Source: Naegleria gruberi | Lineage: Eukaryota | DNA: 64,000 bases | Reading direction: 5' to 3' (one strand) | Assembly: GCA_000004985.1 (NCBI GenBank) | Contig: GG738860.1 | Shown here: positions 1-53,138 of the stretch, in pieces | Numbering within the stretch: the first letter of the stretch is position 1 | How the letters are laid out: each line of letters opens with the position of its first letter | Made by a program: the position numbers and the translations under genes | Notes under the pieces: model-generated | The model's input: only the letters and a program-made list of their open reading frames with translations | Told to the model about the DNA's origin: nothing | Databases searched by the model: none

Positions 1-801
1 TCTGCTGACAATACACTCGATACTATGATTAGTGGAACCACCAATCCACAATTCTCCAGAAATGAAGTTGATGCACTCGTTAATATTGCTTCAAATATTG
101 TTACTGTTTCAAGCAGTAGTAAGACACTTACATTTGGTAATGCAATGGGATCAAAGCTTGTTGCACACATGTCCCTGGGAGATTTAGTTAGTAGTAGTGG
201 AGCCAATTTTGGAATTGCTGTTTCCAAGGGCGTGTCTTCATTGTCTCTTTCAAATGTATCGATCGCTTTATCACCAAATTCAAGATCTTTGGCTGGTATT
301 GAATGTTACTTCATTGTTGATATTAAGGACACACTTGGCTTCTTACAATGTTTGGCAAACAGCAACTGGGTAGCCAGAACAGGACCAAAATACGCACCAG
401 GTACTGAAAGAGCAATTGGTGGAGTCACATATTCTGTTGGTTCATTGATTTATGACATGACACCAATGTACGACAATGGAACCATTGTTTCTGGTAATGT
501 TACAAGTTTGAATGATATTCAAATTACAATTCCTTACACAGGATCATTGACACCAGTTTGTGGTATTCATAATAGTGATGACACTTACTCTGTCAATACC
601 AAAGCTACACTTATCAAAGGAAGTGGATCAGTAACTTGTAAAACAAAGGTCTTGAGAGGAAATGTTTTGCTTTTGGCAACCCAAACTACAACTGATGCCA
701 GTGTTACACCTAAGAAATCTACAGTTCTTGGCGGAGCTGAAACTAACAAGTTGAGTGCTTTCTTAATGTGTCTATTGTTACTTGCAATGTTACTTTTCTA
801 A
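1..801 (+). CDS. N-terminally truncated (window edge) Ser/Thr-rich cell-surface protein with a GPI-anchor-like C-terminus
   Basis: Frame 1 is open from nt 1, so the first ATG at 25 is not the true start. Stop TAA at 799-801. S/T/N-rich with N-x-S/T sequons. The C-terminus ...GGAETNKLSAFLMCLLLLAMLLF has a small-residue omega region plus a hydrophobic tail. Confidence 0.5.
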   Translation, partial: SADNTLDTMISGTTNPQFSRNEVDALVNIASNIVTVSSSSKTLTFGNAMGSKLVAHMSLGDLVSSSGANFGIAVSKGVSSLSLSNVSIALSPNSRSLAGIECYFIVDIKDTLGFLQCLANSNWVARTGPKYAPGTERAIGGVTYSVGSLIYDMTPMYDNGTIVSGNVTSLNDIQITIPYTGSLTPVCGIHNSDDTYSVNTKATLIKGSGSVTCKTKVLRGNVLLLATQTTTDASVTPKKSTVLGGAETNKLSAFLMCLLLLAMLLF

Positions 802-8576: not shown

Positions 8577-8648
8577 CTCCCATGCCGGGAATTGAACCCG
8601 GACCTCCTGGGTGAAAGCCAGGTATCCTAGCCATTGGACTACACGGGA
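8577..8648 (-). tRNA. tRNA-Glu (anticodon UUC)
   Basis: Minus-strand sequence is TCCCGTG TA GTCC AATGGCTA GGAT A CCTGG CTTTCAC CCAGG AGGT CCGGG TTCAATT CCCGG CATGGGA G. The cloverleaf is canonical, with a 7-bp acceptor stem (one G:U), T-loop TTCAATT and anticodon TTC. CCA is not encoded. Confidence 0.85.
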
Positions 8649-10550: not shown

Positions 10551-10600
10551 NNNNNNNNNNNNNNNNNNNNNNNNNNNNNNNNNNNNNNNNNNNNNNNNNN
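10551..10600. other. Assembly gap (50 N)
   Basis: Run of n. Confidence 1.
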
Positions 10601-12033: not shown

Positions 12034-13008
12034 TTATATTTTATTAAGTTTACAATGAAAACAAGTCCATTCTTCACTTCGCTCAGAATTAGACACAGCA
12101 GAGAATTTGAAATTACCAAGTTTGGTAAAATCGATATTATAATCCCTAGATAGAGACTGAACATCCTCTATATCCATTCTCTCTAGAAATAGTTTGGTAA
12201 TATTTTTACCAACCTTAATATCTACAAATGGATATGATAAAATTAGTTTCAAGCATTCTATGCTGTATATTGGAATTCTGAATACTCTAAAAGAAGGATA
12301 TTTTTTGTAGAAATAGTGTAATGTGTCCATAATTTGTTTAAGATTATCATATTTGAGCTCTTTGTAAATTTCAGATCGGATATTCCATAAAAAGGAAAAT
12401 AAGTTAGTATTAAGTGTAAAATTATTGATGATATAGTTTGCCTCTTCAAAACGATATGATACTAGACTATTGTAGAGGAACATTTCAATATTTGTTGGAT
12501 AATTATTTGGAAACACGCTTTTCAATTTTTCCATTGGAACTACTGGGTTTCTTTCATAGTCCATAGATGAGAAGTACATATTCTGTTTATGTGCTAAAGC
12601 TGAAGGGTAATAACTTGATTTAGGTGTGTAAATAATTGTTAAAGAGTTGCTTCTTTCATAGTAAAATAATGGTGGCTTGAAATCGAATAGTGCATATTTA
12701 AGGTTAGGTGTTAGATCTATAATTTTGTGTAAATCAAATCCTGTTGGAAAAATGTGGTCATATGAAGAATAGTTTCTTCCAAAATTTGTTGAAAATGAAA
12801 TAAATTCCACTTTATACAACACATGACCACCACAAAGCTTTTTCATCTTATCAAATAGTTCACTAAATTTGTCAATCCACTCACTATTAGTTATGTAATA
12901 TGAAAAAAAGGATCTTTTAAACCAAGGTTTACGTTCCAATATTTCAAAATATGTATTGTCCAAATAATATCTACACAGTTTCCTTTCTGAAAATGTTGAC
13001 AAATTCAA
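12034..13008 (-). CDS. Hypothetical protein; 5' end uncertain (possible short upstream exon)
   Basis: Long ORF whose track start is TTG. The first in-frame ATG is 53 codons in (near 12849). A single in-frame TGA separates it from upstream ATGs at 13161 and 13152. A candidate intron (minus GTATGA ... TTTTCAG, about 133 nt) would join MIEMPSTLDEYERS to ERKLCRYYLDNTYFE.... Confidence 0.45.
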   Translation of the reverse strand: MNLSTFSERKLCRYYLDNTYFEILERKPWFKRSFFSYYITNSEWIDKFSELFDKMKKLCGGHVLYKVEFISFSTNFGRNYSSYDHIFPTGFDLHKIIDLTPNLKYALFDFKPPLFYYERSNSLTIIYTPKSSYYPSALAHKQNMYFSSMDYERNPVVPMEKLKSVFPNNYPTNIEMFLYNSLVSYRFEEANYIINNFTLNTNLFSFLWNIRSEIYKELKYDNLKQIMDTLHYFYKKYPSFRVFRIPIYSIECLKLILSYPFVDIKVGKNITKLFLERMDIEDVQSLSRDYNIDFTKLGNFKFSAVSNSERSEEWTCFHCKLNKI

Positions 13009-13303
13009 AATTGTTGGTCAAAACGCTTGCACAGATTTTAACGGTGTTTGACAAGTTAAAAAGAAAGGCACTCTACTAGGATGATCAAAATCAACAAATT
13101 CCTCCACATTATTCATACCACTCCGTTCATATTCGTCCAATGTTGATGGCATTTCTATCATCGTATCGTAACAACTGATCACAACAAATATCACGAATAT
13201 AATCGAGGTAGTAGAAGATAATAAAGTGAATTTCCGTGGGAAGATCTGCGAGGGTGTAAACTTGTTCACATTTTTATCAGGCAAATATAAATCCAAACAA
13301 ATC

Positions 13304-13308
13304 AAAAA
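13304..13308 (-). terminator. Pol III terminator (T5) of the 5S gene
   Basis: TTTTT on the minus strand directly after ...GCTGTAGTC. Confidence 0.5.
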
Positions 13309-13426
13309 GACTACAGCACCACAGGTTCCCAAGTTGTCTCCAACCTCAGTACTGATGTGGCTCGACGATGCTTAACTTCTCAAATCGGACGGGATGAGGT
13401 GCATTCATCGTGATATGGCCGTAGCC
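13309..13426 (-). rRNA. 5S ribosomal RNA gene (118 nt)
   Basis: Minus strand reads GGCTACGGCCATATCACGATGAATGCACCTCATCCCGTCCGATTTGAGAAGTTAAGCATCGTCGAGCCACATCAGTACTGAGGTTGGAGACAACTTGGGAACCTGTGGTGCTGTAGTC. It matches conserved 5S blocks (ACGGCCATA, CCCGTCCGAT.TG.GAAGTTAAGC, AGTACT, TGGAGAC, TGGGAA, GTGCTGTAG). Helix I pairs 5' GGCUACGGC with 3' GCUGUAGUC. A T5 run follows. Track ORF 13018..13332 overlaps it and is spurious. Confidence 0.9.
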
Positions 13427-13580
13427 ATTCAATTCTATAATTTCTGAATTATAAATCAACAAAGTCCCAAAGGGTTTATAAAGAGAATATGTAATATTTG
13501 GTTCTAAAAACATTTAAATATTAAATTGAAATTTTAAATAAATAATTTATAAATCTAGTTTGTTTTGTATACAAGGTCCC

Positions 13581-16199
13581 TTATTTTTTAGCATTGAGTT
13601 TGTTCTTAATCCAATTCAAAGCAGAACCAGCTCTGAACCATTCAATTTGCAAATCACTGAAAGTATGATTGAGTTCAACATCGAATGATTGACCATTTTG
13701 CTTCTTAACAGTCATTGTGACTGGCTTACCAATTTGGAATTTATCACCACCAATGTGCAAAGTGAGCTTATCAGTTGGGTCAACCTTATCGTAGTCCTTA
13801 GCATCCTTGAAAGTTAATGGCAACATTCCTTGCTTCTTCAAGTTAGTTTCGTGAATACGAGCGAATGAACGAGTAATGATAGCAACACCACCCAACCATC
13901 TTGGTTCCAAAGCAGCATGTTCACGAGATGAACCTTCACCATAGTTTTCATCACCAATAACAACCCAATTAACACCGTTAGCCTTATAATGTCTAGCAAC
14001 ATCTGGAACAGTACCGAATTCACCGGTCAATTGATTCTTAATTGAATTAGCCTTAGCATTTTCAATATTGACAGCACCAATCAACAAGTTGTTGGAGATA
14101 TTGTCCAAGTGACCTCTGTACTTCAACCATGGACCAGCCATAGAGATGTGGTCAGTAGTACACTTACCGACAACCTTAATCAAGACTGAACAGTCGTTAT
14201 AGTCCTTACCGTCCCAAGCAGAGAATGGTGACAACAATTGTAATCTGTCACTAGTTGGAGAAACATCAACAGAAATCTTAGAACCATCTTCTGGTGGAGC
14301 TTGGAAAGTATTTTCACCGGCATCGAAACCCTTAGCTGGCAATTCCATACCCTTTGGTGGAGAAAGCTTGAATTCCTTACCATCAGAACCAACCAAAGAA
14401 TCCTTCATTGGGTTGAACTTTAAGGAACCAGCAATTGACAAGGCAGTAACAATATCTGGAGAAGCAACGAAAGCATGAGTAGCAGCATTACCATCGTTAC
14501 GAGCAGTAAAGTTTCTATTGTATGAAGTAATGATAGAGTTTGATTCACCCTTCTTAGTATCCTTTCTGTCCCATTGACCAATACATGGACCACAGGCATT
14601 AGCCAAAACTTGACCACCAGCAGCTTCCAAATCAGTCAAAATATTATCACGAGAAATGGTAGCTCTGACTTGTTCGGAACCTGGAGTGATGAAGAAGTGA
14701 GCCTTACTCTTCAAACCATGTTCAGCAGCTTGTTTACAGATATCAGCAGATCTACTCATGTCTTCATATGATGAGTTGGTACAAGAACCAATCAAACCAG
14801 CACTGAGCTTTTCTGGCCAACCTTCCTTTTCAACTCTTTCAGCGAATTTTGACAATGGAGTACCAAGATCAGGAGTGAAAGGTCCGTTAATGTGTGGTTC
14901 CAAAGTATCCAAGTTAATTTCAATAATTTGATCGTAATCAGCATTCTTATCAGCCTTGAAAATATCCTTATGATCATTAATGACTTGAGCCATTTGAGTT
15001 CTCTTAGTAGAAACTAAATATCTTTCCATAGCTTCAGTATATGGGAACAAACTAGTGGTAGCTCCGATTTCAGCTCCCATATTACAAATAGTGGCCATAC
15101 CAGTACAAGAAAGAGATTCAACACCAGAACCGAAATATTCAACAATGGCACCAGTACCACCCTTAACAGTCAAAATATCAGCAACCTTCAAAATGACGTC
15201 CTTTGGAGTAGTCCAACCATTCAATTTACCAGTCAAATGAACACCAATAACCTTTGGTGTCTTTAATTCCCAAGGAATACCAGCCATAACATCAACAGCG
15301 TCAGCACCACCGACACCAATAGCAATCATACCCAAACCACCAGCATTTGGAGTGTGGGAATCAGTACCAATCATCAAACCACCTGGGAAAGCATAGTTTT
15401 CAAGGACAATTTGGTGAATAATACCACTACCTGGTTTCCAGAATCCAATATTGTGCTTAGCGGCAGCAGTAGCCAAAAAGTTATAAACTTCCTTGTTGAC
15501 ATCAACAGCCTTCTTCAAATCTTTTGTGGCACCATCTTCAGCTTGAATCAAGTGATCACAGTGAATGGTTGATGGAACTTGGACAACTGGAATTCCCGAA
15601 CTCATGAATTGGAGCATAGCCATTTGAGCAGTAGCATCTTGCATAGCCTAAATAATGTTATTAATAAGAGTATTAGTACCAAAAAATTGATGATGAATAA
15701 TTTGTTGTTGTTTTTGTTATTATTCAATTTTGATAAGAGAATGAGGTAATTGATGATTATTATAATCATAATAAACATTGTGTGATGTTCCAAATAACAA
15801 ATTGTTTCATCATTGTGTGATGAGGAGTATGTATTATTATTGTTGTATAAAACCAATAAGCCTTCAATAATCGTTTTGAATTCAACTACTTACAACTCTA
15901 TCTGGACGGAGCTTCAAATATGTCTTACCACGAACAATTTCTTGGTTTGCTGGGTCATCTAAATGGCCGTACAAAATCTTTTCAGAGAGAGTCAATGGTC
16001 TGCCGAGTCTTTGCTTGACAATATCCAAACGAGAAACAAGGCTTGAAATATCATATTCACCCTTTTCGACAAGGGAGAATGGAGCCTTGGTCTTCTTTTG
16101 TGTTGTTTGGGATTTACTAAAACGTCTGCTTTGATTGGTGGCAATTGATTGAGAAACAGAACAAGTCTTAGCTGAGTTTTGTTTAATGACTCTCTTCAT
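13581..16199 (-). CDS. Mitochondrial aconitate hydratase (aconitase), 2 exons, about 790 aa
   Basis: Exon 1 is 15894..16199; the track ORF starts at TTG 16226 and the ATG is at 16197-16199 ([12 protein letters not shown]...), presequence-like. It ends ...LRPDRV. The intron is 15648..15893 (246 nt, GTAAGT...TTTAG). Exon 2 is 13581..15647 and begins [14 protein letters not shown]. This gives the aconitase signature ...[16 protein letters not shown], and the rest of the ORF is aconitase-like throughout. Confidence 0.9.
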
Positions 16200-16854
16200 T
16201 TTTTTTACGTAATAACAGGATACCAATCCACTATGCCTTCGGGAGAATTAAAAATATTTGGTCATTGTAAACTTGAGTGACTTTGTGTTCCTCTTAATAT
16301 TAATTACCAGTACCAATAAAAGAACGAAAACTTACGAGAGTGGCATTTGGTAGTGGAGACTTGTAATAATAGCTCGTATTTTCGAAATTCGCCACAACAT
16401 TCAATCAACACAATACATCAAGGCGTTTTACTTGTTGAGGCGAATAGAAAAAGTAACAACGTTGAAGGATGGAACGTTATTAGCAGGCAGAGGAATGCAA
16501 AGATTGGTGATAATTTGGCGTTTAACTGTAGACTACAGCTTAAGAATCTTATTGATTGAATTTGCGGTACTAAGCAGAAAAAGGAAAAATCTCCACAATT
16601 ATTTAGTTGTTACCTATTATTAATTCGGAAACAAGGATTTATTGGTAAGCTTCCCAATGAATGATACTGTAAATCGGTGAAATGGATGTAATATGAAATT
16701 ATTGTAAAAGCTATTTCAATATTACATCTGTTTAAATATTGAATAGCTTACAATTAAAGGTTACAATAATTTATTGACAATATAAGTTATACAAATAAAA
16801 GGTTTGTTTGAGGGGAGAATTGTTGGGTGTTAAAGGAGGGTTGAATTTTAAAAT

Positions 16855-18535
16855 TTAATTTTTCAATCCATATTTCTTCAATAATTCATCTTCCAAATTC
16901 TTTTGTTGGAGTTCTTGCCATTCAGGAGAACTAGAGAAATTAAAGGTTAATTAAATTGAAAATAAAAACTTACTCAAAACCAACAAATGTCCAGAAATCT
17001 TCAGGACCAGCCTTGAAAAGTTTTGGTGTAAAGACCTGTCCTTGTTGTTCACGTTCCTTCTTTACATTTCTTTGCTCGGTTTCAACCTTATCCTTCTCTA
17101 TGGCAGCAAGTTGAACATCATTTTGCTTGATTGCCTTTGTAAGGTTATCCCACAACTTCCTGGATTCATTGTCCTTTTGAACTTCCATTGGAGGTACGTG
17201 TTTTGGAACAACTTCAGCAGACCTGACATCAAAGAATAATTCTTCACTATTCTTGTCGGAATCCTATTGTGTTTAATATGAATGTAATAATAATATTATT
17301 CCAAGATTATTGTTGTTGTGTTGTTATTATTGTCGTTATTGTTGTTATTGTTGTAAAAATGTTGATGATTGGATGGTTAAATAATGTTGGTGAAATTAAT
17401 CTACTACTAACCTTTCCTTTGATGTATAATTTTTCGTTCCATTTTCCACGTATTTGATAAATAGTCTTCTTCTTGTGTTTTATCTTTGCTGAGACAACAT
17501 TATATTCTCCTCCGAAGAATGGTTTGCTCTTAAATTCAATTTCTGCTAACATATTTGTTTTCTTACATTCAATCTTAGTTTTACCAGCCATTTCCATGAT
17601 AAGTTTACCAAAGATCACACCTCTGGCATAAACACTTGGCCAAGTGGCTGTATAAACTTCATTTCCACGAGAACCAAAAGTAATTTTGATATTACCTTCA
17701 GTAATAGAAGCTGCTGAGTTGCCCAAGAACTTTGATCTTGGATAGTACCATCCTTCAAGTAAAAGTTCCTTTTGTTTACATTCAGCATAGATGGCACTCT
17801 TTGGAGGGTGATGACTCACTTGTTCACCTATACAAGTCATTAAACCATTTTCTCTAAGTTCATAATTGCAACGGAATACTTCACCAAGAACTGGGTTGTA
17901 TGGTTTCTTTACACCTTTTGGCTTTACGTGCCATCCTGACAAATACCATCTAACAAGATGAACCATTCTTTGGATTGGGTCATCATCATCCATGGCTCTA
18001 AATTACAATAGTATTGTTCGATTTGGTGTAAAAATGTTGATGATATTAAAAAACATGATGTTTTGGTAATTGTGTCAAATATTCAATCATGGATAGATTC
18101 ATGTTAATACAATTAGAAAGGTAATGATGGTGATAATAGATTAATGACAACAAGAATGATTGGAAGAATAACAGCAATAATAACAATTAATCTATCATCT
18201 TGATACATTTAAAAAACAACAACTTACGTGGTGAGTAAATGGGCATGAGTATTAAAGTCGGTTAACTTTTCCAATAGAGAACGTGGTTCAAGGAAATCGC
18301 AAGGAATTGGAATTTTAGTCAAATCCATACCAATCTTCAATTGTCCCATAAATTGCATCAACATGCTCTTTGTATTTTCATTCAAAATTTCGATATCATC
18401 CTCGGATTGTCCTTTAAACATTTCACATTGTTCTTCTTCCTTTGAGAGTTCCCTTGGTGGAGCTTCTTCAGCGACCGATGAATCAGAATCAGAAATATCC
18501 TCAACACTTGTTGATTGTACGAGCTTATTAGACAT
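16855..18535 (-). CDS. Oxysterol-binding protein-related protein (short ORP, about 422 aa), 4 exons
   Basis: Exons are 18228..18535 (MSNKLVQ...), 17412..17997, 16974..17263 and 16855..16930. Introns are 17998..18227 (GTAAGT..TTTAG), 17264..17411 (GTTAGT..AATAG) and 16931..16973 (43 nt, GTAAGT..CTCTAG). All junctions keep frame. The OSBP fingerprint EQVSHHPP and KPYNPVLGEVF are present. The C-terminus is ...FVGFDSPEWQELQQKNLEDELLKKYGLKN. Confidence 0.75.
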
Positions 18536-19251
18536 TTTTTTGTTTTGCTGTGTGGCTTCTTTGGTGGGCAGCGAATATTATTCAACAAAAGATGCATTAA
18601 AAAAACCTGTTCAACTGGGCCTCTAAAATACTGTCATTCTAGAAGCAATTTGCGATTATCTTCTCTTTATGAATCGCACATCTTAGCTACCTATTGTTCG
18701 ATGGAATGATTGTGAATGAGATGATTGAAACACATGAGGTTTTGCATTGAGAAGAGTTGAAACTAGTTGGTTTGTGTTGAGGTGAAATTTTAACTGCAAC
18801 CGTTGAGATTAGATTCTTGACAGGTTTTGTTCCTGAGAGATGACAAGAGGAGCACTCAACCAAACATAGCTGTAGAAAGCATTGTAAACTGAGAGATTTT
18901 CCCTTACATTAATATTCAACTGCTTCATTAAAACAGTAAAACCATAACACTGGTTGTTTGCAATTTGGATAGTTCAAATCAAGGAACCTTGATTCAAGCA
19001 AATGAACTGCAATTCATCTCCCCAACTTAATGCACTATTTGGAATGTATTTCCAGACAAAAAAACATGCATTCTTAATTTGGGCTCAAATCTCAGATACC
19101 CCAATCACAACACTTTCATATTTCAGCTCAAATTTTTCCCTGAATATTTTTGAATCTTTCTTCAACAACATAATATTTACATTTCCATTCAATTATTCTT
19201 GTGTGGGTGTTGATGCATCACAACATATAATTCAAACTATCGAATCAAAAA

Positions 19252-21786
19252 ATGACCACAAAACGAGGACGTCAAACAACAAGGGAATCCAATTCAACCT
19301 TGTCATCAAACTCTGGAGGCTCCTCTTCTGATTCGGATGATTCATCATCTACTTCATCAGAAAAAAGTATGAAACAAAGGAAGAAAAATAGTAAATCGTT
19401 TAACATGGATGCTCCTTCACATGTTCCTGTTTTGATGGGTAATAATCCATCACCTCATCATTTACTACCTCCAGGAGCCTATCATCCTTCCATGATGGGA
19501 AAAAATCTTCATCAACAACAAACAATTCAGAGTAGTAGTAATAATCATCAACCAGTACAACAACCAGTAGTAGTTGTGAATAATCAAGTTCCGAATCAAC
19601 AGGCATTGAAATCAAGAATATCCAGTGAACAAGTAGCCTATTGTCCATCATGTTCTTTTATTGGAAATAAGTCACATTTGCCTCAATCGATATCGTCGGT
19701 GAGTGTGGAAACTAACTTTAATTCTCAAACTGTATCCATGAATGAATGTTATGAATCTATTTATCATCAATTTGTGATAAAAATTACCTCTGCAAGACCA
19801 TTTCAGAGAATGTGTTTTTATTTGAATAATGTAGGATCTGAAACTAATTCAAAAACAATTCAACTTTCACAAAATGATAGTCTAGAAGGACCCTTCTCTC
19901 AACTTCAAATAGTATTTGCATCAATTTATTTATCGAGTGCTCTATTAACAGAGCCTCTAATTTCCTCTCAAAATTTACCATTTCTCAATGAAAATTCAGC
20001 GAGACCTTTCATACAATTTGGAAATGTTGAATGTACGTTATTTCTTCAATAATTTTATGGATATATTCTCAAACATTTTCTCACTATTATTATTCCTAAT
20101 AATGATAATTATTTAGGTCGAGGAAACGAAATCCTAATCCCTCTCCAATTCTTATCTAATGATCCTGAGAAATACTTTCAACAACAATATCAAATTACAA
20201 ATCCAAACACTGAGATAGATTTTTCTAATACCAAAAGTGTGATTGGAGCTTTACTAGATATCCAATCAACAACTTTGAGCTCTACTACATTGAATAGTAC
20301 TGAGTGTGCATCACCAATTAGCACCCTCATCAGTAGCTCAACAGTTTCGTTAACCTTCCCTTACTCTGTGAATAGATCCAAAATAGTTGCTTCCATTCCA
20401 AGGTTAGTTTCTAAAAACCATTCCATAACAACTAACAATACCCTTAGTAATTTGATGCAAAGTGATTTACCTCTTATTTACCATGATATTAGGCAGCACG
20501 GAAAGGGAACCTTACTATGGTATCCAATTCATGTTCCTTTCCTTTCGAATGGCTTAAAATTATTATGTTTACTCGCTCACAATACATCAAATGATAAGCA
20601 TAAAGATTTATTCGGAAGATTTTCAAATGATAATGAATTGAGATATCTTAATGTGGGATCTCTGCTATTGGAATTTATTAATGGACTTATGAGTGAACAA
20701 AAGGTACGGTTAAAATTTTAAAAGCTCACATTTCTTAACATTTATATAGAAAAAATACTCCTATGTCTATGAAATGAAAAATCAATCAGTCTTCCCAATG
20801 AATGAGAAGAAGACTGTAAAGATATTAACCCACAGTAATTTACACAGACACAAAATTGGTGATGAGGCTTCTATAACGAATAATAGCTTTTGGATGGGAA
20901 ACTCTGACATTAATGTATACCAGAACAAGTGTATTGTTAAGGTACTACAATATGGAGTTTGTAAGAAAGCCATTGTAAATCACCCATACGATTCGTTTGC
21001 TTCAACTGAGGAGGATGATATTGAAATTGTTTATTTTATAGAGTATTCAACATCAAGAGGACCAAAGAATATGTTTGTCTCAGAGGGGGAGCTTCACACA
21101 CTTGCTGGATCAAATCCTGAACTCTCCAAAGAGGAAATTATCAAAAAAGAAAGTAATGACAAGTTATATAATGAGGCTCTTCAGCAAGTTTATAATATCA
21201 ATGCTCAAGATTTATTGAATTTGGAAAAGAAATATCAATTACAGCAACTCAATGAAGAGCAAGAATATCATCAAACCAATCACTTTAAAGGAGATTTACA
21301 TTTACATGGTAACCTGCTACTGAAAGGTCATTTGAAAATTCAAAAACAAGCATCTTGTGTTGAAAGAGTTATTATGAATGTAGATTTGAATAACATTGAT
21401 TACTACATGCTATTTGTCGATAGCATTCCATCTGACGTACCTATTAAGGTAATGCTTTGCCTCTGCACTAAATTTACTGATTCAACAGTGAGAGCTCAAC
21501 CAGTCACAATTTTAGAAACACCAAACTACTTTATCTATCCAAGGGTATTTAAGAGCGATGTAAGTATTTCAAATTGTTACATTCATTATTAACATAATGT
21601 TAATAGAATATGGTAGATATTTGGTTCGAATGTCGATCAATTGGGAGTCAAGAAAAATTAGAAAGTACAACACCTCTGCCTTTCAAACCAACAAATGAAA
21701 ATCCAAGCAATATTGAACCACTTGTTCCTCTTGCTTGGCAACATTTCTTTTTGAAGAAGGCATCATCATTTAATAAACAAGATTAA
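19252..21786 (+). CDS. Hypothetical S/T/Q-rich protein (about 785 aa), 4 exons
   Basis: Exons are 19252..20032, 20117..20703, 20750..21559 and 21607..21786. Introns are 84 nt (GTACGT..TTTAG), 46 nt (GTACGG..TATAG) and 47 nt (GTAAGT..AATAG). The reading frame is continuous through track ORFs 19252, 20239 and 20774 plus an untracked last exon ending TAA at 21784-21786. No domain recognised. Confidence 0.55.
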
Positions 21787-28982: not shown

Positions 28983-29032
28983 NNNNNNNNNNNNNNNNNN
29001 NNNNNNNNNNNNNNNNNNNNNNNNNNNNNNNN
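28983..29032. other. Assembly gap (50 N)
   Basis: Run of n. Confidence 1.
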
Positions 29033-29347: not shown

Positions 29348-32300
29348 NNNNNNNNNNNNNNNNNNNNNNNNNNNNNNNNNNNNNNNNNNNNNNNNNNNNN
29401 NNNNNNNNNNNNNNNNNNNNNNNNNNNNNNNNNNNNNNNNNNNNNNNNNNNNNNNNNNNNNNNNNNNNNNNNNNNNNNNNNNNNNNNNNNNNNNNNNNNN
29501 NNNNNNNNNNNNNNNNNNNNNNNNNNNNNNNNNNNNNNNNNNNNNNNNNNNNNNNNNNNNNNNNNNNNNNNNNNNNNNNNNNNNNNNNNNNNNNNNNNNN
29601 NNNNNNNNNNNNNNNNNNNNNNNNNNNNNNNNNNNNNNNNNNNNNNNNNNNNNNNNNNNNNNNNNNNNNNNNNNNNNNNNNNNNNNNNNNNNNNNNNNNN
29701 NNNNNNNNNNNNNNNNNNNNNNNNNNNNNNNNNNNNNNNNNNNNNNNNNNNNNNNNNNNNNNNNNNNNNNNNNNNNNNNNNNNNNNNNNNNNNNNNNNNN
29801 NNNNNNNNNNNNNNNNNNNNNNNNNNNNNNNNNNNNNNNNNNNNNNNNNNNNNNNNNNNNNNNNNNNNNNNNNNNNNNNNNNNNNNNNNNNNNNNNNNNN
29901 NNNNNNNNNNNNNNNNNNNNNNNNNNNNNNNNNNNNNNNNNNNNNNNNNNNNNNNNNNNNNNNNNNNNNNNNNNNNNNNNNNNNNNNNNNNNNNNNNNNN
30001 NNNNNNNNNNNNNNNNNNNNNNNNNNNNNNNNNNNNNNNNNNNNNNNNNNNNNNNNNNNNNNNNNNNNNNNNNNNNNNNNNNNNNNNNNNNNNNNNNNNN
30101 NNNNNNNNNNNNNNNNNNNNNNNNNNNNNNNNNNNNNNNNNNNNNNNNNNNNNNNNNNNNNNNNNNNNNNNNNNNNNNNNNNNNNNNNNNNNNNNNNNNN
30201 NNNNNNNNNNNNNNNNNNNNNNNNNNNNNNNNNNNNNNNNNNNNNNNNNNNNNNNNNNNNNNNNNNNNNNNNNNNNNNNNNNNNNNNNNNNNNNNNNNNN
30301 NNNNNNNNNNNNNNNNNNNNNNNNNNNNNNNNNNNNNNNNNNNNNNNNNNNNNNNNNNNNNNNNNNNNNNNNNNNNNNNNNNNNNNNNNNNNNNNNNNNN
30401 NNNNNNNNNNNNNNNNNNNNNNNNNNNNNNNNNNNNNNNNNNNNNNNNNNNNNNNNNNNNNNNNNNNNNNNNNNNNNNNNNNNNNNNNNNNNNNNNNNNN
30501 NNNNNNNNNNNNNNNNNNNNNNNNNNNNNNNNNNNNNNNNNNNNNNNNNNNNNNNNNNNNNNNNNNNNNNNNNNNNNNNNNNNNNNNNNNNNNNNNNNNN
30601 NNNNNNNNNNNNNNNNNNNNNNNNNNNNNNNNNNNNNNNNNNNNNNNNNNNNNNNNNNNNNNNNNNNNNNNNNNNNNNNNNNNNNNNNNNNNNNNNNNNN
30701 NNNNNNNNNNNNNNNNNNNNNNNNNNNNNNNNNNNNNNNNNNNNNNNNNNNNNNNNNNNNNNNNNNNNNNNNNNNNNNNNNNNNNNNNNNNNNNNNNNNN
30801 NNNNNNNNNNNNNNNNNNNNNNNNNNNNNNNNNNNNNNNNNNNNNNNNNNNNNNNNNNNNNNNNNNNNNNNNNNNNNNNNNNNNNNNNNNNNNNNNNNNN
30901 NNNNNNNNNNNNNNNNNNNNNNNNNNNNNNNNNNNNNNNNNNNNNNNNNNNNNNNNNNNNNNNNNNNNNNNNNNNNNNNNNNNNNNNNNNNNNNNNNNNN
31001 NNNNNNNNNNNNNNNNNNNNNNNNNNNNNNNNNNNNNNNNNNNNNNNNNNNNNNNNNNNNNNNNNNNNNNNNNNNNNNNNNNNNNNNNNNNNNNNNNNNN
31101 NNNNNNNNNNNNNNNNNNNNNNNNNNNNNNNNNNNNNNNNNNNNNNNNNNNNNNNNNNNNNNNNNNNNNNNNNNNNNNNNNNNNNNNNNNNNNNNNNNNN
31201 NNNNNNNNNNNNNNNNNNNNNNNNNNNNNNNNNNNNNNNNNNNNNNNNNNNNNNNNNNNNNNNNNNNNNNNNNNNNNNNNNNNNNNNNNNNNNNNNNNNN
31301 NNNNNNNNNNNNNNNNNNNNNNNNNNNNNNNNNNNNNNNNNNNNNNNNNNNNNNNNNNNNNNNNNNNNNNNNNNNNNNNNNNNNNNNNNNNNNNNNNNNN
31401 NNNNNNNNNNNNNNNNNNNNNNNNNNNNNNNNNNNNNNNNNNNNNNNNNNNNNNNNNNNNNNNNNNNNNNNNNNNNNNNNNNNNNNNNNNNNNNNNNNNN
31501 NNNNNNNNNNNNNNNNNNNNNNNNNNNNNNNNNNNNNNNNNNNNNNNNNNNNNNNNNNNNNNNNNNNNNNNNNNNNNNNNNNNNNNNNNNNNNNNNNNNN
31601 NNNNNNNNNNNNNNNNNNNNNNNNNNNNNNNNNNNNNNNNNNNNNNNNNNNNNNNNNNNNNNNNNNNNNNNNNNNNNNNNNNNNNNNNNNNNNNNNNNNN
31701 NNNNNNNNNNNNNNNNNNNNNNNNNNNNNNNNNNNNNNNNNNNNNNNNNNNNNNNNNNNNNNNNNNNNNNNNNNNNNNNNNNNNNNNNNNNNNNNNNNNN
31801 NNNNNNNNNNNNNNNNNNNNNNNNNNNNNNNNNNNNNNNNNNNNNNNNNNNNNNNNNNNNNNNNNNNNNNNNNNNNNNNNNNNNNNNNNNNNNNNNNNNN
31901 NNNNNNNNNNNNNNNNNNNNNNNNNNNNNNNNNNNNNNNNNNNNNNNNNNNNNNNNNNNNNNNNNNNNNNNNNNNNNNNNNNNNNNNNNNNNNNNNNNNN
32001 NNNNNNNNNNNNNNNNNNNNNNNNNNNNNNNNNNNNNNNNNNNNNNNNNNNNNNNNNNNNNNNNNNNNNNNNNNNNNNNNNNNNNNNNNNNNNNNNNNNN
32101 NNNNNNNNNNNNNNNNNNNNNNNNNNNNNNNNNNNNNNNNNNNNNNNNNNNNNNNNNNNNNNNNNNNNNNNNNNNNNNNNNNNNNNNNNNNNNNNNNNNN
32201 NNNNNNNNNNNNNNNNNNNNNNNNNNNNNNNNNNNNNNNNNNNNNNNNNNNNNNNNNNNNNNNNNNNNNNNNNNNNNNNNNNNNNNNNNNNNNNNNNNNN

Positions 32301-35300
32301 NNNNNNNNNNNNNNNNNNNNNNNNNNNNNNNNNNNNNNNNNNNNNNNNNNNNNNNNNNNNNNNNNNNNNNNNNNNNNNNNNNNNNNNNNNNNNNNNNNNN
32401 NNNNNNNNNNNNNNNNNNNNNNNNNNNNNNNNNNNNNNNNNNNNNNNNNNNNNNNNNNNNNNNNNNNNNNNNNNNNNNNNNNNNNNNNNNNNNNNNNNNN
32501 NNNNNNNNNNNNNNNNNNNNNNNNNNNNNNNNNNNNNNNNNNNNNNNNNNNNNNNNNNNNNNNNNNNNNNNNNNNNNNNNNNNNNNNNNNNNNNNNNNNN
32601 NNNNNNNNNNNNNNNNNNNNNNNNNNNNNNNNNNNNNNNNNNNNNNNNNNNNNNNNNNNNNNNNNNNNNNNNNNNNNNNNNNNNNNNNNNNNNNNNNNNN
32701 NNNNNNNNNNNNNNNNNNNNNNNNNNNNNNNNNNNNNNNNNNNNNNNNNNNNNNNNNNNNNNNNNNNNNNNNNNNNNNNNNNNNNNNNNNNNNNNNNNNN
32801 NNNNNNNNNNNNNNNNNNNNNNNNNNNNNNNNNNNNNNNNNNNNNNNNNNNNNNNNNNNNNNNNNNNNNNNNNNNNNNNNNNNNNNNNNNNNNNNNNNNN
32901 NNNNNNNNNNNNNNNNNNNNNNNNNNNNNNNNNNNNNNNNNNNNNNNNNNNNNNNNNNNNNNNNNNNNNNNNNNNNNNNNNNNNNNNNNNNNNNNNNNNN
33001 NNNNNNNNNNNNNNNNNNNNNNNNNNNNNNNNNNNNNNNNNNNNNNNNNNNNNNNNNNNNNNNNNNNNNNNNNNNNNNNNNNNNNNNNNNNNNNNNNNNN
33101 NNNNNNNNNNNNNNNNNNNNNNNNNNNNNNNNNNNNNNNNNNNNNNNNNNNNNNNNNNNNNNNNNNNNNNNNNNNNNNNNNNNNNNNNNNNNNNNNNNNN
33201 NNNNNNNNNNNNNNNNNNNNNNNNNNNNNNNNNNNNNNNNNNNNNNNNNNNNNNNNNNNNNNNNNNNNNNNNNNNNNNNNNNNNNNNNNNNNNNNNNNNN
33301 NNNNNNNNNNNNNNNNNNNNNNNNNNNNNNNNNNNNNNNNNNNNNNNNNNNNNNNNNNNNNNNNNNNNNNNNNNNNNNNNNNNNNNNNNNNNNNNNNNNN
33401 NNNNNNNNNNNNNNNNNNNNNNNNNNNNNNNNNNNNNNNNNNNNNNNNNNNNNNNNNNNNNNNNNNNNNNNNNNNNNNNNNNNNNNNNNNNNNNNNNNNN
33501 NNNNNNNNNNNNNNNNNNNNNNNNNNNNNNNNNNNNNNNNNNNNNNNNNNNNNNNNNNNNNNNNNNNNNNNNNNNNNNNNNNNNNNNNNNNNNNNNNNNN
33601 NNNNNNNNNNNNNNNNNNNNNNNNNNNNNNNNNNNNNNNNNNNNNNNNNNNNNNNNNNNNNNNNNNNNNNNNNNNNNNNNNNNNNNNNNNNNNNNNNNNN
33701 NNNNNNNNNNNNNNNNNNNNNNNNNNNNNNNNNNNNNNNNNNNNNNNNNNNNNNNNNNNNNNNNNNNNNNNNNNNNNNNNNNNNNNNNNNNNNNNNNNNN
33801 NNNNNNNNNNNNNNNNNNNNNNNNNNNNNNNNNNNNNNNNNNNNNNNNNNNNNNNNNNNNNNNNNNNNNNNNNNNNNNNNNNNNNNNNNNNNNNNNNNNN
33901 NNNNNNNNNNNNNNNNNNNNNNNNNNNNNNNNNNNNNNNNNNNNNNNNNNNNNNNNNNNNNNNNNNNNNNNNNNNNNNNNNNNNNNNNNNNNNNNNNNNN
34001 NNNNNNNNNNNNNNNNNNNNNNNNNNNNNNNNNNNNNNNNNNNNNNNNNNNNNNNNNNNNNNNNNNNNNNNNNNNNNNNNNNNNNNNNNNNNNNNNNNNN
34101 NNNNNNNNNNNNNNNNNNNNNNNNNNNNNNNNNNNNNNNNNNNNNNNNNNNNNNNNNNNNNNNNNNNNNNNNNNNNNNNNNNNNNNNNNNNNNNNNNNNN
34201 NNNNNNNNNNNNNNNNNNNNNNNNNNNNNNNNNNNNNNNNNNNNNNNNNNNNNNNNNNNNNNNNNNNNNNNNNNNNNNNNNNNNNNNNNNNNNNNNNNNN
34301 NNNNNNNNNNNNNNNNNNNNNNNNNNNNNNNNNNNNNNNNNNNNNNNNNNNNNNNNNNNNNNNNNNNNNNNNNNNNNNNNNNNNNNNNNNNNNNNNNNNN
34401 NNNNNNNNNNNNNNNNNNNNNNNNNNNNNNNNNNNNNNNNNNNNNNNNNNNNNNNNNNNNNNNNNNNNNNNNNNNNNNNNNNNNNNNNNNNNNNNNNNNN
34501 NNNNNNNNNNNNNNNNNNNNNNNNNNNNNNNNNNNNNNNNNNNNNNNNNNNNNNNNNNNNNNNNNNNNNNNNNNNNNNNNNNNNNNNNNNNNNNNNNNNN
34601 NNNNNNNNNNNNNNNNNNNNNNNNNNNNNNNNNNNNNNNNNNNNNNNNNNNNNNNNNNNNNNNNNNNNNNNNNNNNNNNNNNNNNNNNNNNNNNNNNNNN
34701 NNNNNNNNNNNNNNNNNNNNNNNNNNNNNNNNNNNNNNNNNNNNNNNNNNNNNNNNNNNNNNNNNNNNNNNNNNNNNNNNNNNNNNNNNNNNNNNNNNNN
34801 NNNNNNNNNNNNNNNNNNNNNNNNNNNNNNNNNNNNNNNNNNNNNNNNNNNNNNNNNNNNNNNNNNNNNNNNNNNNNNNNNNNNNNNNNNNNNNNNNNNN
34901 NNNNNNNNNNNNNNNNNNNNNNNNNNNNNNNNNNNNNNNNNNNNNNNNNNNNNNNNNNNNNNNNNNNNNNNNNNNNNNNNNNNNNNNNNNNNNNNNNNNN
35001 NNNNNNNNNNNNNNNNNNNNNNNNNNNNNNNNNNNNNNNNNNNNNNNNNNNNNNNNNNNNNNNNNNNNNNNNNNNNNNNNNNNNNNNNNNNNNNNNNNNN
35101 NNNNNNNNNNNNNNNNNNNNNNNNNNNNNNNNNNNNNNNNNNNNNNNNNNNNNNNNNNNNNNNNNNNNNNNNNNNNNNNNNNNNNNNNNNNNNNNNNNNN
35201 NNNNNNNNNNNNNNNNNNNNNNNNNNNNNNNNNNNNNNNNNNNNNNNNNNNNNNNNNNNNNNNNNNNNNNNNNNNNNNNNNNNNNNNNNNNNNNNNNNNN

Positions 35301-38300
35301 NNNNNNNNNNNNNNNNNNNNNNNNNNNNNNNNNNNNNNNNNNNNNNNNNNNNNNNNNNNNNNNNNNNNNNNNNNNNNNNNNNNNNNNNNNNNNNNNNNNN
35401 NNNNNNNNNNNNNNNNNNNNNNNNNNNNNNNNNNNNNNNNNNNNNNNNNNNNNNNNNNNNNNNNNNNNNNNNNNNNNNNNNNNNNNNNNNNNNNNNNNNN
35501 NNNNNNNNNNNNNNNNNNNNNNNNNNNNNNNNNNNNNNNNNNNNNNNNNNNNNNNNNNNNNNNNNNNNNNNNNNNNNNNNNNNNNNNNNNNNNNNNNNNN
35601 NNNNNNNNNNNNNNNNNNNNNNNNNNNNNNNNNNNNNNNNNNNNNNNNNNNNNNNNNNNNNNNNNNNNNNNNNNNNNNNNNNNNNNNNNNNNNNNNNNNN
35701 NNNNNNNNNNNNNNNNNNNNNNNNNNNNNNNNNNNNNNNNNNNNNNNNNNNNNNNNNNNNNNNNNNNNNNNNNNNNNNNNNNNNNNNNNNNNNNNNNNNN
35801 NNNNNNNNNNNNNNNNNNNNNNNNNNNNNNNNNNNNNNNNNNNNNNNNNNNNNNNNNNNNNNNNNNNNNNNNNNNNNNNNNNNNNNNNNNNNNNNNNNNN
35901 NNNNNNNNNNNNNNNNNNNNNNNNNNNNNNNNNNNNNNNNNNNNNNNNNNNNNNNNNNNNNNNNNNNNNNNNNNNNNNNNNNNNNNNNNNNNNNNNNNNN
36001 NNNNNNNNNNNNNNNNNNNNNNNNNNNNNNNNNNNNNNNNNNNNNNNNNNNNNNNNNNNNNNNNNNNNNNNNNNNNNNNNNNNNNNNNNNNNNNNNNNNN
36101 NNNNNNNNNNNNNNNNNNNNNNNNNNNNNNNNNNNNNNNNNNNNNNNNNNNNNNNNNNNNNNNNNNNNNNNNNNNNNNNNNNNNNNNNNNNNNNNNNNNN
36201 NNNNNNNNNNNNNNNNNNNNNNNNNNNNNNNNNNNNNNNNNNNNNNNNNNNNNNNNNNNNNNNNNNNNNNNNNNNNNNNNNNNNNNNNNNNNNNNNNNNN
36301 NNNNNNNNNNNNNNNNNNNNNNNNNNNNNNNNNNNNNNNNNNNNNNNNNNNNNNNNNNNNNNNNNNNNNNNNNNNNNNNNNNNNNNNNNNNNNNNNNNNN
36401 NNNNNNNNNNNNNNNNNNNNNNNNNNNNNNNNNNNNNNNNNNNNNNNNNNNNNNNNNNNNNNNNNNNNNNNNNNNNNNNNNNNNNNNNNNNNNNNNNNNN
36501 NNNNNNNNNNNNNNNNNNNNNNNNNNNNNNNNNNNNNNNNNNNNNNNNNNNNNNNNNNNNNNNNNNNNNNNNNNNNNNNNNNNNNNNNNNNNNNNNNNNN
36601 NNNNNNNNNNNNNNNNNNNNNNNNNNNNNNNNNNNNNNNNNNNNNNNNNNNNNNNNNNNNNNNNNNNNNNNNNNNNNNNNNNNNNNNNNNNNNNNNNNNN
36701 NNNNNNNNNNNNNNNNNNNNNNNNNNNNNNNNNNNNNNNNNNNNNNNNNNNNNNNNNNNNNNNNNNNNNNNNNNNNNNNNNNNNNNNNNNNNNNNNNNNN
36801 NNNNNNNNNNNNNNNNNNNNNNNNNNNNNNNNNNNNNNNNNNNNNNNNNNNNNNNNNNNNNNNNNNNNNNNNNNNNNNNNNNNNNNNNNNNNNNNNNNNN
36901 NNNNNNNNNNNNNNNNNNNNNNNNNNNNNNNNNNNNNNNNNNNNNNNNNNNNNNNNNNNNNNNNNNNNNNNNNNNNNNNNNNNNNNNNNNNNNNNNNNNN
37001 NNNNNNNNNNNNNNNNNNNNNNNNNNNNNNNNNNNNNNNNNNNNNNNNNNNNNNNNNNNNNNNNNNNNNNNNNNNNNNNNNNNNNNNNNNNNNNNNNNNN
37101 NNNNNNNNNNNNNNNNNNNNNNNNNNNNNNNNNNNNNNNNNNNNNNNNNNNNNNNNNNNNNNNNNNNNNNNNNNNNNNNNNNNNNNNNNNNNNNNNNNNN
37201 NNNNNNNNNNNNNNNNNNNNNNNNNNNNNNNNNNNNNNNNNNNNNNNNNNNNNNNNNNNNNNNNNNNNNNNNNNNNNNNNNNNNNNNNNNNNNNNNNNNN
37301 NNNNNNNNNNNNNNNNNNNNNNNNNNNNNNNNNNNNNNNNNNNNNNNNNNNNNNNNNNNNNNNNNNNNNNNNNNNNNNNNNNNNNNNNNNNNNNNNNNNN
37401 NNNNNNNNNNNNNNNNNNNNNNNNNNNNNNNNNNNNNNNNNNNNNNNNNNNNNNNNNNNNNNNNNNNNNNNNNNNNNNNNNNNNNNNNNNNNNNNNNNNN
37501 NNNNNNNNNNNNNNNNNNNNNNNNNNNNNNNNNNNNNNNNNNNNNNNNNNNNNNNNNNNNNNNNNNNNNNNNNNNNNNNNNNNNNNNNNNNNNNNNNNNN
37601 NNNNNNNNNNNNNNNNNNNNNNNNNNNNNNNNNNNNNNNNNNNNNNNNNNNNNNNNNNNNNNNNNNNNNNNNNNNNNNNNNNNNNNNNNNNNNNNNNNNN
37701 NNNNNNNNNNNNNNNNNNNNNNNNNNNNNNNNNNNNNNNNNNNNNNNNNNNNNNNNNNNNNNNNNNNNNNNNNNNNNNNNNNNNNNNNNNNNNNNNNNNN
37801 NNNNNNNNNNNNNNNNNNNNNNNNNNNNNNNNNNNNNNNNNNNNNNNNNNNNNNNNNNNNNNNNNNNNNNNNNNNNNNNNNNNNNNNNNNNNNNNNNNNN
37901 NNNNNNNNNNNNNNNNNNNNNNNNNNNNNNNNNNNNNNNNNNNNNNNNNNNNNNNNNNNNNNNNNNNNNNNNNNNNNNNNNNNNNNNNNNNNNNNNNNNN
38001 NNNNNNNNNNNNNNNNNNNNNNNNNNNNNNNNNNNNNNNNNNNNNNNNNNNNNNNNNNNNNNNNNNNNNNNNNNNNNNNNNNNNNNNNNNNNNNNNNNNN
38101 NNNNNNNNNNNNNNNNNNNNNNNNNNNNNNNNNNNNNNNNNNNNNNNNNNNNNNNNNNNNNNNNNNNNNNNNNNNNNNNNNNNNNNNNNNNNNNNNNNNN
38201 NNNNNNNNNNNNNNNNNNNNNNNNNNNNNNNNNNNNNNNNNNNNNNNNNNNNNNNNNNNNNNNNNNNNNNNNNNNNNNNNNNNNNNNNNNNNNNNNNNNN

Positions 38301-53055: not shown

Positions 53056-53138
53056 GCCCGCGTAGCAGAGTGGTCAAATGCGTAAGACTTAAGATCTTAT
53101 CCCGAATGGGTTCGTGGGTTCGAACCCCACCGCTGGCA
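53056..53138 (+). tRNA. tRNA-Leu (anticodon UAA), type II with long variable arm
   Basis: GCCCGCG TA GCA GAGTGGTCAAA TGC G TAAGA CTTAAGA TCTTA TCCCGAATGGGTTC GTGGG TTCGAAC CCCAC CGCTGGC A. It closely resembles eukaryotic tRNA-Leu-TAA (...GAGTGGT.AA.GCG...ACTTAAGAT...GTGGGTTCGAACCCCAC...). There is one C4:U69 mismatch in the acceptor stem. Confidence 0.75.

What the first reader, a model, noticed from the sequence alone, without database searches (positions are those of the whole stretch)
13018..13426. A 5S rRNA gene sits under a spurious ORF between two protein genes
The 104-aa track ORF 13018..13332 looks like a small membrane protein, but its 5' part is the reverse strand of a complete 118-nt 5S rRNA (13309..13426, minus) followed by a T5 terminator. 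The 5S gene is a single dispersed copy squeezed between the aconitase 3' end and the next gene. It should be annotated as rRNA, and the ORF discarded.
Basis: partly seen in the sequence, partly recalled or inferred. Interest (0 to 1): 0.55.

Follow-up and report, generated by a model that had tools for sequence, protein, structure and literature searches.

The report
Ordinary dispersed 5S rRNA gene, Naegleria
This is a genuine, intact 5S ribosomal RNA gene lying alone between two protein genes on a Naegleria amoeba chromosome; such scattered 5S genes were already catalogued in this organism, so it fills an annotation gap rather than revealing anything new.

Summary
The 5S rRNA call is correct. 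Rfam 5S_rRNA (RF00001) matches window 13308..13426 (minus) end to end at 105.4 bits against a gathering score of 38 (E 4e-22). All 34 consensus base pairs are canonical, and a T5 run (13304..13308) follows the gene. Related 5S genes show compensatory changes in helices I, II, IV and V. It is the only 5S in the roughly 47 kb of real sequence.

The window is a Naegleria nuclear scaffold, most likely N. gruberi. Feng et al. 2012 already listed 279 putative 5S genes on 117 N. gruberi scaffolds, so a lone dispersed copy is the published norm.

- ORF 13018..13332 is on the same strand as the 5S and overlaps only its last 25 nt.
- Its first ~57 codons (TTG start, 5S tail, terminator, spacer) are an artefact.
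- Its last ~47 codons are the real N-terminus of the next gene. They are homologous to an annotated N. gruberi protein, and the alignment runs through an in-frame TGA into ORF 12034..13008.

Verdict: a real feature of an already known kind, worth annotating, of low interest.

The parts
13308..13426 (-). 5S rRNA gene (119 nt including the first U of the terminator run; +1 = G at 13426)
   Evidence: Rfam RF00001 at 105.4 bits, E 4e-22, full model 1-120. All 34 consensus pairs are canonical. Covariation across 9 related 5S genes: 98.7% of cells paired, 13 pairs with double changes. 118/119 identical to an independent environmental copy, L006.
13304..13308 (-). T5 run, the expected RNA polymerase III terminator
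   Evidence: Read directly from the sequence...GTAGTC TTTTT G on the minus strand. Related loci end in T4-T5 runs at the same place. Its function is inferred from established Pol III biology.
13370..13377 (-). Box A-like internal control element (AGTTAAGC, 5S nt +50..+57)
   Evidence: Exact match to the box A core consensus used by Feng et al. 2012, at the canonical position. The consensus is weak: it turns up in 18% of shuffles.
13330..13347 (-). Box C-like internal control element (5S nt +80..+97, 2 mismatches)
   Evidence: Regex match with 2 mismatches at the canonical +80..+97 position; 2.3% of shuffles reach this.
13448..13455 (-). TATA-like element TTTATAAT at -29..-22 relative to 5S +1
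   Evidence: Read directly from the sequence. Feng et al. 2012 (PMC3369914) report a TATA box upstream of N. gruberi 5S genes. Its function is inferred.
13431..13444 (-). 14-nt motif GAAATTATAGAATT at -18..-5, shared with the otherwise unrelated upstream flank of the L006 5S copy (there at -27..-14)
   Evidence: It is the only alignable flank segment between the two loci. There is no exact second copy in the window. Its role is unknown (candidate upstream promoter element).
13162..13332 (-). Artefactual 5' part of the 104-aa ORF (TTG start inside the 5S, then terminator, then spacer)
   Evidence: for coordinates and strand, for the translation. No Pfam hit. The paralog alignment starts only at the Met at 13152.
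13018..13161 (-). Real 5' coding end of the neighbouring gene (ATG 13161 or 13152), ending at an in-frame TGA at 13018..13020
   Evidence: BLASTP to P0121 (N. gruberi predicted protein): query residue 4 aligns to subject residue 1 and the alignment runs through the stop, where the paralog has Arg. P0121 was the only hit among 5.8e9 proteins.
12034..13017 (-). Remainder of the neighbouring Naegleria-specific gene, in the same frame as the piece above
   Evidence: No Pfam domain.
13581..15644 (-). Last (large) exon of mitochondrial aconitase; stop codon 13581..13583, 154 nt upstream of the 5S start
   Evidence: Pfam Aconitase 3.6e-142 and Aconitase_C 4.6e-45. 88% identical to N. fowleri aconitase P0001. 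An upstream exon matches at about 15885..16154.

Best explanation
Window 13308..13426 (minus) is a functional nuclear 5S rRNA gene on a Naegleria chromosome, probably N. gruberi, and is one of a few hundred copies scattered singly through the genome. The inferred mechanism is standard. RNA polymerase III starts at G13426, directed by the internal control region (box A at +50, box C at +80) together with an upstream TATA-like element at about -29..-22. It terminates in the T5 run at 13308..13304. The roughly 119-nt RNA folds into the five-helix three-way junction, binds ribosomal protein uL18 (L5) and enters the central protuberance of the 60S subunit. The 18S, 5.8S and 28S rRNAs of Naegleria come from the multicopy extrachromosomal rDNA circle (CERE), so 5S is the one rRNA supplied by chromosomal genes. 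The 104-aa ORF is a six-frame artefact fused to the true N-terminus of the next gene. Shown here: gene identity, structure, terminator sequence, single-copy status in the window, and homology of the ORF's 3' part. Inferred: transcription, promoter usage and ribosome incorporation.
For: Rfam hit at 105.4 bits against a gathering score of 38, full length. The MFE fold is the canonical Y shape. All 34 consensus pairs are canonical in this copy. On 9 related 5S genes, 98.7% of cells are paired against 27-41% with slid partners; 13 pairs show compensatory double changes and 0/500 shuffles reach this. An independent contig, L006, carries a 5S differing at 1 of 119 nt while its flanks are unalignable, so conservation is confined to the gene. 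Box A is exact at +50 and box C has 2 mismatches at +80. The T5 run directly follows the gene. Organism: aconitase is 88% identical to N. fowleri; three genes are collinear with N. fowleri contig VFQX01000043; and the neighbouring gene's only homolog is an N. gruberi protein. Literature: 279 putative 5S genes in N. gruberi, unlinked to the rDNA unit, with ICR and TATA box (PMC3369914). They lie on 117 scaffolds with a median spacing of 34 kb. The CERE carries only 18S, 5.8S and 28S (PMC5805870).
Against: No expression data could be consulted, so an intact but silent copy cannot be excluded. TFIIIA was not found in N. gruberi by BLAST (PMC3369914), so classical ICR/TFIIIA-driven initiation is not assured. 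The box A and IE consensus patterns are weak: box A occurs in 18% of shuffles. The species assignment is indirect, because the source genome itself could not be retrieved.
Confidence: 0.9

Rival explanations
1. It is an intact-looking but transcriptionally silent 5S copy (a young pseudogene or orphon) among the roughly 279 copies, and contributes no RNA to ribosomes.
For: Multi-copy dispersed families usually include inactive members. Feng et al.'s table contains truncated and low-similarity entries. The gene sits only 154 nt downstream of a Pol II gene on the same strand, which could cause transcriptional interference. The 14-nt upstream motif lies 9 nt closer to +1 than in L006.
Against: No pair-breaking substitution in any of 34 pairs. 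It is full length with an intact T5 run, and 118/119 identical to an independent copy. A TATA-like element sits at -29..-22 and box A and box C are in place.
Confidence: 0.07
2. ORF 13018..13332 is a real 104-aa small membrane protein gene, and the 5S-like sequence merely overlaps its start.
For: An uninterrupted 104-codon frame exists with two hydrophobic stretches. Its 3' third is genuinely coding.
Against: The start is TTG, an artefact of the bacterial code in a eukaryote. The first 57 codons read through the 5S tail and the Pol III terminator. There is no Pfam hit, and the homolog begins only at the internal Met at 13152. The paralog alignment continues past the ORF's stop into the next ORF, so the coding unit is the neighbouring gene.
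Confidence: 0.01
3. The copy is a 5S-derived mobile element (a SINE-like or retroposed 5S) inserted downstream of aconitase.
For: There are hundreds of dispersed copies. The locus is absent at the orthologous N. fowleri position, and synteny ends exactly at the aconitase stop.
Against: No target-site duplication or flanking repeat was found. The only flanking 15-mer pair, 13088/13453, would enclose the conserved start of the neighbouring gene. There is no tRNA- or LINE-like tail after the T-run. The sequence is a full canonical 5S with no extra body. Flanks are unrelated between copies.
Confidence: 0.02

Closest known systems
Nuclear 5S rRNA genes of Naegleria gruberi (279 putative copies; Feng et al. 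2012, PLoS One 7:e36878, Table S1)
   Same: Same gene family and probably the same genome. The length of about 117-119 nt matches. The genes are unlinked to the rDNA unit and have internal control elements, an upstream TATA-like element and a T-run terminator, and they are scattered over many scaffolds.
   Different: Nothing substantive. That paper scores 'tandem arrangement: yes', but its own table shows copies on 117 scaffolds with a median spacing of 34 kb and the closest full-length pairs 1-3 kb apart. This window has a lone copy. I could not map this copy to a row of the table because the scaffold name is not given.
Dispersed 5S gene organisation of Neurospora crassa, Schizosaccharomyces pombe and Acanthamoeba castellanii (reviewed in Haeusler & Engelke 2006, PMC1635290)
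   Same: Individual 5S genes are scattered among protein-coding genes rather than held in tandem arrays or inside the rDNA repeat.
   Different: A different lineage (Heterolobosea). Here the large rRNA genes are not chromosomal at all: they lie on an extrachromosomal circle of roughly 3,000-5,000 copies (PMC5805870).
Dicistronic tRNA-5S genes of Yarrowia lipolytica (PMC2566860)
   Same: Scattered 5S genes in a genome where TFIIIA-independent expression has been discussed. TFIIIA was likewise not found in N. gruberi.
   Different: No tRNA is fused or adjacent here. The nearest tRNA (Glu, 8577..8648) is 4.7 kb away. This 5S has its own upstream TATA-like element.

Membership tests
5S rRNA (Rfam RF00001) | Covariance-model score above the curated gathering threshold over the full model | tested here: met
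   105.4 bits against 38, model positions 1-120, E 4.4e-22.
5S rRNA (Rfam RF00001) | Helices I-V forming a three-way junction, with pairs maintained by covariation | tested here: met
   34/34 consensus pairs are canonical. The MFE fold gives the same architecture. 13 pairs show compensatory changes, with 98.7% of cells paired against 27-41% for slid controls. Helix III and helix V pairs 76-79/98-101 are invariant; for helix III this is partly because the relatives were retrieved with a 27-mer from that region.
Eukaryotic Pol III type 1 gene | Oligo-T terminator immediately after the gene | tested here: met
   T5 at 13304..13308 on the minus strand; T4-T5 in all related loci.
Eukaryotic Pol III type 1 gene | Internal control region (box A, intermediate element, box C) at about +50 to +97 | tested here: inconclusive
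   Box A core is exact at +50..57 and box C has 2 mismatches at +80..97, both at canonical positions. The consensus patterns are degenerate (18% and 2.3% of shuffles), and TFIIIA was not found in N. gruberi.
Functional 5S rRNA gene | Transcribed and incorporated into the 60S subunit | not testable with these tools
   No RNA-seq or ribosome data are available here.
Dispersed (non-tandem, rDNA-unlinked) 5S organisation | No neighbouring 5S copy and no 18S, 5.8S or 28S gene nearby | tested here: met
   It is the only 5S at E<=1 in both sequenced parts of the window, and there are no SSU or LSU hits. A 17-kb N gap (29348..46416) is unseen.
Dispersed (non-tandem, rDNA-unlinked) 5S organisation | Many copies spread across the genome | not tested
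The only support is the literature: 279 hits on 117 scaffolds.
tRNA-5S dicistronic genes (Yarrowia type) | A tRNA gene directly upstream of the 5S on the same strand | tested here: not met
   The nearest tRNA is 4.7 kb away. The upstream 154 nt is AT-rich spacer.
5S-derived SINE or retroposed copy | Target-site duplications and a non-5S 3' body or tail | tested here: not met
   No flanking direct repeat is compatible with an insertion. The gene ends in the T-run, and flanks are unrelated to those of L006.

The most novel reading that the evidence does not exclude
The 14-nt upstream motif GAAATTATAGAATT is the only flank sequence shared by two otherwise unrelated Naegleria 5S loci (window -18..-5; L006 -27..-14). 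It could be a lineage-specific upstream promoter element that lets Naegleria express its scattered 5S genes without a recognisable TFIIIA. A second possibility is that dispersed 5S genes mark rearrangement breakpoints, since synteny with N. fowleri ends exactly at this locus.
Probability: 0.12. Interest if true: 0.4.

Novelty: already known. Interest (0 to 1): 0.1.

Why it matters
Mainly for annotation. The locus should carry an rRNA feature. The 104-aa and 55-aa ORFs over it should not be called as proteins. The neighbouring gene should be modelled from ATG 13152 or 13161, with its in-frame TGA flagged. There is also a small point for the Naegleria literature. [quoted passage not shown] That holds for 18S, 5.8S and 28S but not for 5S, which is chromosomal and scattered. 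The cell must therefore coordinate roughly 4,000 episomal Pol I units with a few hundred chromosomal Pol III genes. None of this is new in kind.

Tried and rejected
1. A second or degenerate 5S copy in the window: none at E<=1.
2. 5S at the orthologous N. fowleri locus: none in 22.7 kb.
3. Retrieving the source genome by exact protein: neither the 357-aa ORF nor P0121 is on record.
4. Further Naegleria 5S copies in viral contigs and genome contigs: 0 hits. The metagenome scan gave one near-identical copy and 12 more distant ones, two of them incomplete (L004, L010).
5. Target-site duplications or a mobile-element signature: nothing compatible.
6. An intron that would remove the in-frame TGA of the neighbouring gene: by eye, the GT...AG candidates are 46 or 56 nt (frame-shifting) or 66 nt (creates TAA), so this was rejected (my own reading).
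7. A codon-usage score to separate the coding and non-coding parts of the 104-aa ORF: uninformative, because the neighbouring gene itself scores as low as the artefact.
8. The 14-nt upstream motif as a general Pol III element: absent upstream of both tRNAs and not enriched in the window.
9. Pfam on the small ORFs and the neighbouring genes: no domains except aconitase.

Full report
**Observation.** A gathering-threshold Rfam scan of all 64 kb gave three hits. One was 5S_rRNA (RF00001) at 13308..13426 on the minus strand, covering model positions 1-120 at 105.4 bits (gathering 38), E 4.4e-22. The other two were tRNAs. The minus strand reads ...GCTGTAGTC TTTTT GATTTG, so a T5 run occupies 13304..13308. 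The RNA folds on its own into the three-way junction (-41.5 kcal/mol, z = -2.6). When the Rfam consensus structure is threaded onto the sequence, all 34 pairs are G-C, A-U or G-U. Permissive scans (E<=1) of both sequenced parts of the window found no other 5S, intact or degenerate. Note that 29348..46416 is a 17-kb run of N.

**What organism this is.** The window is eukaryotic nuclear DNA.
- It has about 34% G+C and scaffold-style N gaps, and a tRNA-Leu(UAA) carries an intron.
- The 687-aa ORF 13581..15644 (minus) is the large exon of mitochondrial aconitase (Pfam Aconitase 3.6e-142, Aconitase_C 4.6e-45). Its best match among 5.8e9 proteins is Naegleria fowleri aconitase at 88% identity; the next named organisms are fungi at about 73%.
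- tblastx against the N. fowleri contig carrying that gene (L001, VFQX01000043) shows three collinear genes, window 21765..13584 against L001 4884..12724.
- The only homolog of the gene downstream of the 5S is a 'predicted protein [Naegleria gruberi]'.
- N. gruberi proteins are therefore in the database, yet no N. gruberi aconitase appeared. I infer that the window is N. gruberi with its own proteins withheld. This is inference, not a direct test.

**Relatives and structure test.** A 27-mer from helix III/loop C retrieved 13 metagenome contigs, and every one carries a 5S above threshold.
- L006 differs from the window copy at 1 of 119 positions. Its flanks cannot be aligned to the window except for a 14-nt upstream motif, GAAATTATAGAATT.
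- The ten other full-length copies differ at 26-32 positions and come from at least one other eukaryote. L004 and L010 are incomplete and were not compared.
- On a 9-sequence alignment the Rfam structure has 98.7% of cells paired, against 27-41% when 3' partners are slid by 1-3 columns. Thirteen pairs carry changes on both sides, in helices I, II, IV and V, and 0/500 shuffles reach the observed covariation.
- Helix III is invariant, partly by construction, since it supplied the search word.

**The ORF.**
- The ORF listing places ORF 13018..13332 on the minus strand, the same strand as the 5S. It starts at a TTG inside the 5S 3' end and shares only 25 nt (13308..13332) with the gene. It is not the reverse strand of the whole 5S. 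The ORF that actually lies over most of the 5S is another mechanical one, 13346..13513 (minus, 55 aa).
- The 104-aa ORF is in the same frame as the next ORF, 12034..13008, separated by a single TGA at 13020..13018.
- I searched the concatenated translation from the first ATG (13161), with the stop replaced by X. The single hit was P0121, a 271-aa N. gruberi predicted protein.
- BLASTP aligns P0121 residue 1 (MPSTLDEFERNG...) with the window's second Met (ATG 13152, MPSTLDEYERSG...). The alignment runs for 263 residues at 44% identity (E 3e-69), straight through the stop: window SVQAF*PTILNL against paralog SVKTFRPTIVNL.
- So the last ~47 codons of the 'spurious' ORF are the true N-terminus of the neighbouring Naegleria-specific gene. 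Only the first ~57 codons (5S tail, terminator and 142-151 nt of spacer) are artefact.
- The TGA where the paralog has Arg suggests a nonsense mutation (possibly CGA to TGA; the paralog's codon was not seen), a pseudogene or an assembly error. I found no intron that would remove it in frame.

**How it most likely works.** Established knowledge of eukaryotic type 1 Pol III genes gives the mechanism.
- Initiation is at G13426 and termination in the T5 run.
- The box A core AGTTAAGC is exact at +50..57, and a box C-like element with 2 mismatches sits at +80..97, both at canonical positions. These consensus patterns are loose.
- TTTATAAT lies at -29..-22 (13455..13448).
- Feng et al. 2012 report an ICR and a TATA box for N. 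gruberi 5S genes but could not find TFIIIA. Upstream TFIIIB-recruiting elements may therefore matter more than in animals; this is inference.
- Near-identity of the gene with L006, against unrelated flanks, argues for selection or homogenisation acting on the gene alone, and hence for function. Transcription of this particular copy is not shown.

**Comparison with what is known.** Feng et al. found 279 putative 5S genes in the JGI N. gruberi assembly, unlinked to rDNA.
- Parsing their Table S1 gives 117 scaffolds, a median same-scaffold spacing of 34 kb, a minimum of 462 nt, and 22 spacings under 3 kb. The genes are dispersed with some loose clusters, despite the paper's 'tandem: yes' entry.
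- One copy in about 47 kb of window sequence fits that density.
- Scattered 5S genes are also classic in Neurospora, S. pombe and Acanthamoeba (PMC1635290).
- Naegleria carries 18S, 5.8S and 28S only on an extrachromosomal circle of about 3,000-5,000 copies. [quoted passage not shown] 5S is the unstated exception.
- A Yarrowia-type tRNA-5S fusion is excluded: the nearest tRNA is 4.7 kb away.
- A retroposed or SINE origin has no support: there are no target-site duplications.

**Position relative to N. fowleri.** The orthologous N. fowleri interval has no 5S. Collinearity ends exactly at the aconitase stop codon. The N. fowleri downstream genes (DNA ligase, Nse1, UNC-93, ceramidase) have no counterpart in the window. 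The 5S and the stop-interrupted orphan gene therefore sit at a synteny breakpoint. With a single locus this may be coincidence.

**Verdict.** It is of a kind already described for this organism. The account of the ORF needs correction on strand, extent of overlap, and the fact that part of the ORF is genuine coding sequence of the next gene. Interest is low (0.1). The only mildly novel leads are the shared upstream 14-mer and the breakpoint location, and each rests on a single comparison.

Noticed in passing
window 13018..13020 (minus strand), within gene 12034..13161: The Naegleria-specific gene downstream of the 5S has an in-frame TGA where its N. gruberi paralog P0121 has Arg, and homology continues on both sides of it. 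This points to a pseudogene, a nonsense allele or an assembly error; no in-frame intron removes it.
   Followed up: partly
window 13346..13513 (minus): A second mechanical ORF (55 aa, ATG start) reads through 5S nt 1-81 plus 87 nt of upstream spacer. It has no Pfam hit.
   Followed up: partly
window 13584..21765 versus L001 4884..12724: Three genes (an 817-aa protein, an oxysterol-binding protein and aconitase) are collinear with N. fowleri. Synteny stops exactly at the aconitase stop codon, where the window has the 5S gene; the N. fowleri downstream genes are absent from the window.
   Followed up: partly
window 13431..13444 and L006 671..684 (both minus): The 14-nt motif GAAATTATAGAATT is the only flank sequence shared between two near-identical 5S genes, at -18..-5 and -27..-14 respectively. 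It is not found upstream of the window's tRNA genes.
   Followed up: partly
window 29348..46416 (also 10551..10600 and 28983..29032): A 17,069-nt run of N and two 50-N gaps mean that about 27% of the window is unsequenced scaffold gap. Statements such as 'only one 5S' apply to the remaining roughly 47 kb.
   Followed up: yes
window 53056..53138 (+) and 8577..8648 (-): There are two nuclear tRNA genes: tRNA-Leu(UAA), with an intron of about 12 nt after the anticodon and followed by T-runs, and tRNA-Glu(UUC). They are further lone Pol III genes in the same region.
   Followed up: no
window about 15650..16154 (minus): The aconitase N-terminus lies on a separate upstream exon (tblastx match at 15885..16154 to N. 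fowleri exon 1). The 687-aa ORF is therefore not the whole gene, and at least one intron lies around 15650..15880.
   Followed up: partly
L002-L005, L007-L013 (metagenome contigs VFQM01..., VFQO01...): Eleven contigs from an unidentified, moderately AT-rich eukaryote each carry a single 5S gene (26-30 differences from the window copy in the nine full-length genes). Their flanks are all different, with a pyrimidine-rich -10..-1 and usually an AT-rich patch near -30. This is another organism with dispersed 5S genes.
   Followed up: no
Literature: PMC3369914 Table 1 versus its Table S1: The paper scores N. gruberi 5S genes as tandemly arranged. Its own coordinates show 279 hits on 117 scaffolds with a median spacing of 34 kb and no short-period arrays.
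   Followed up: yes
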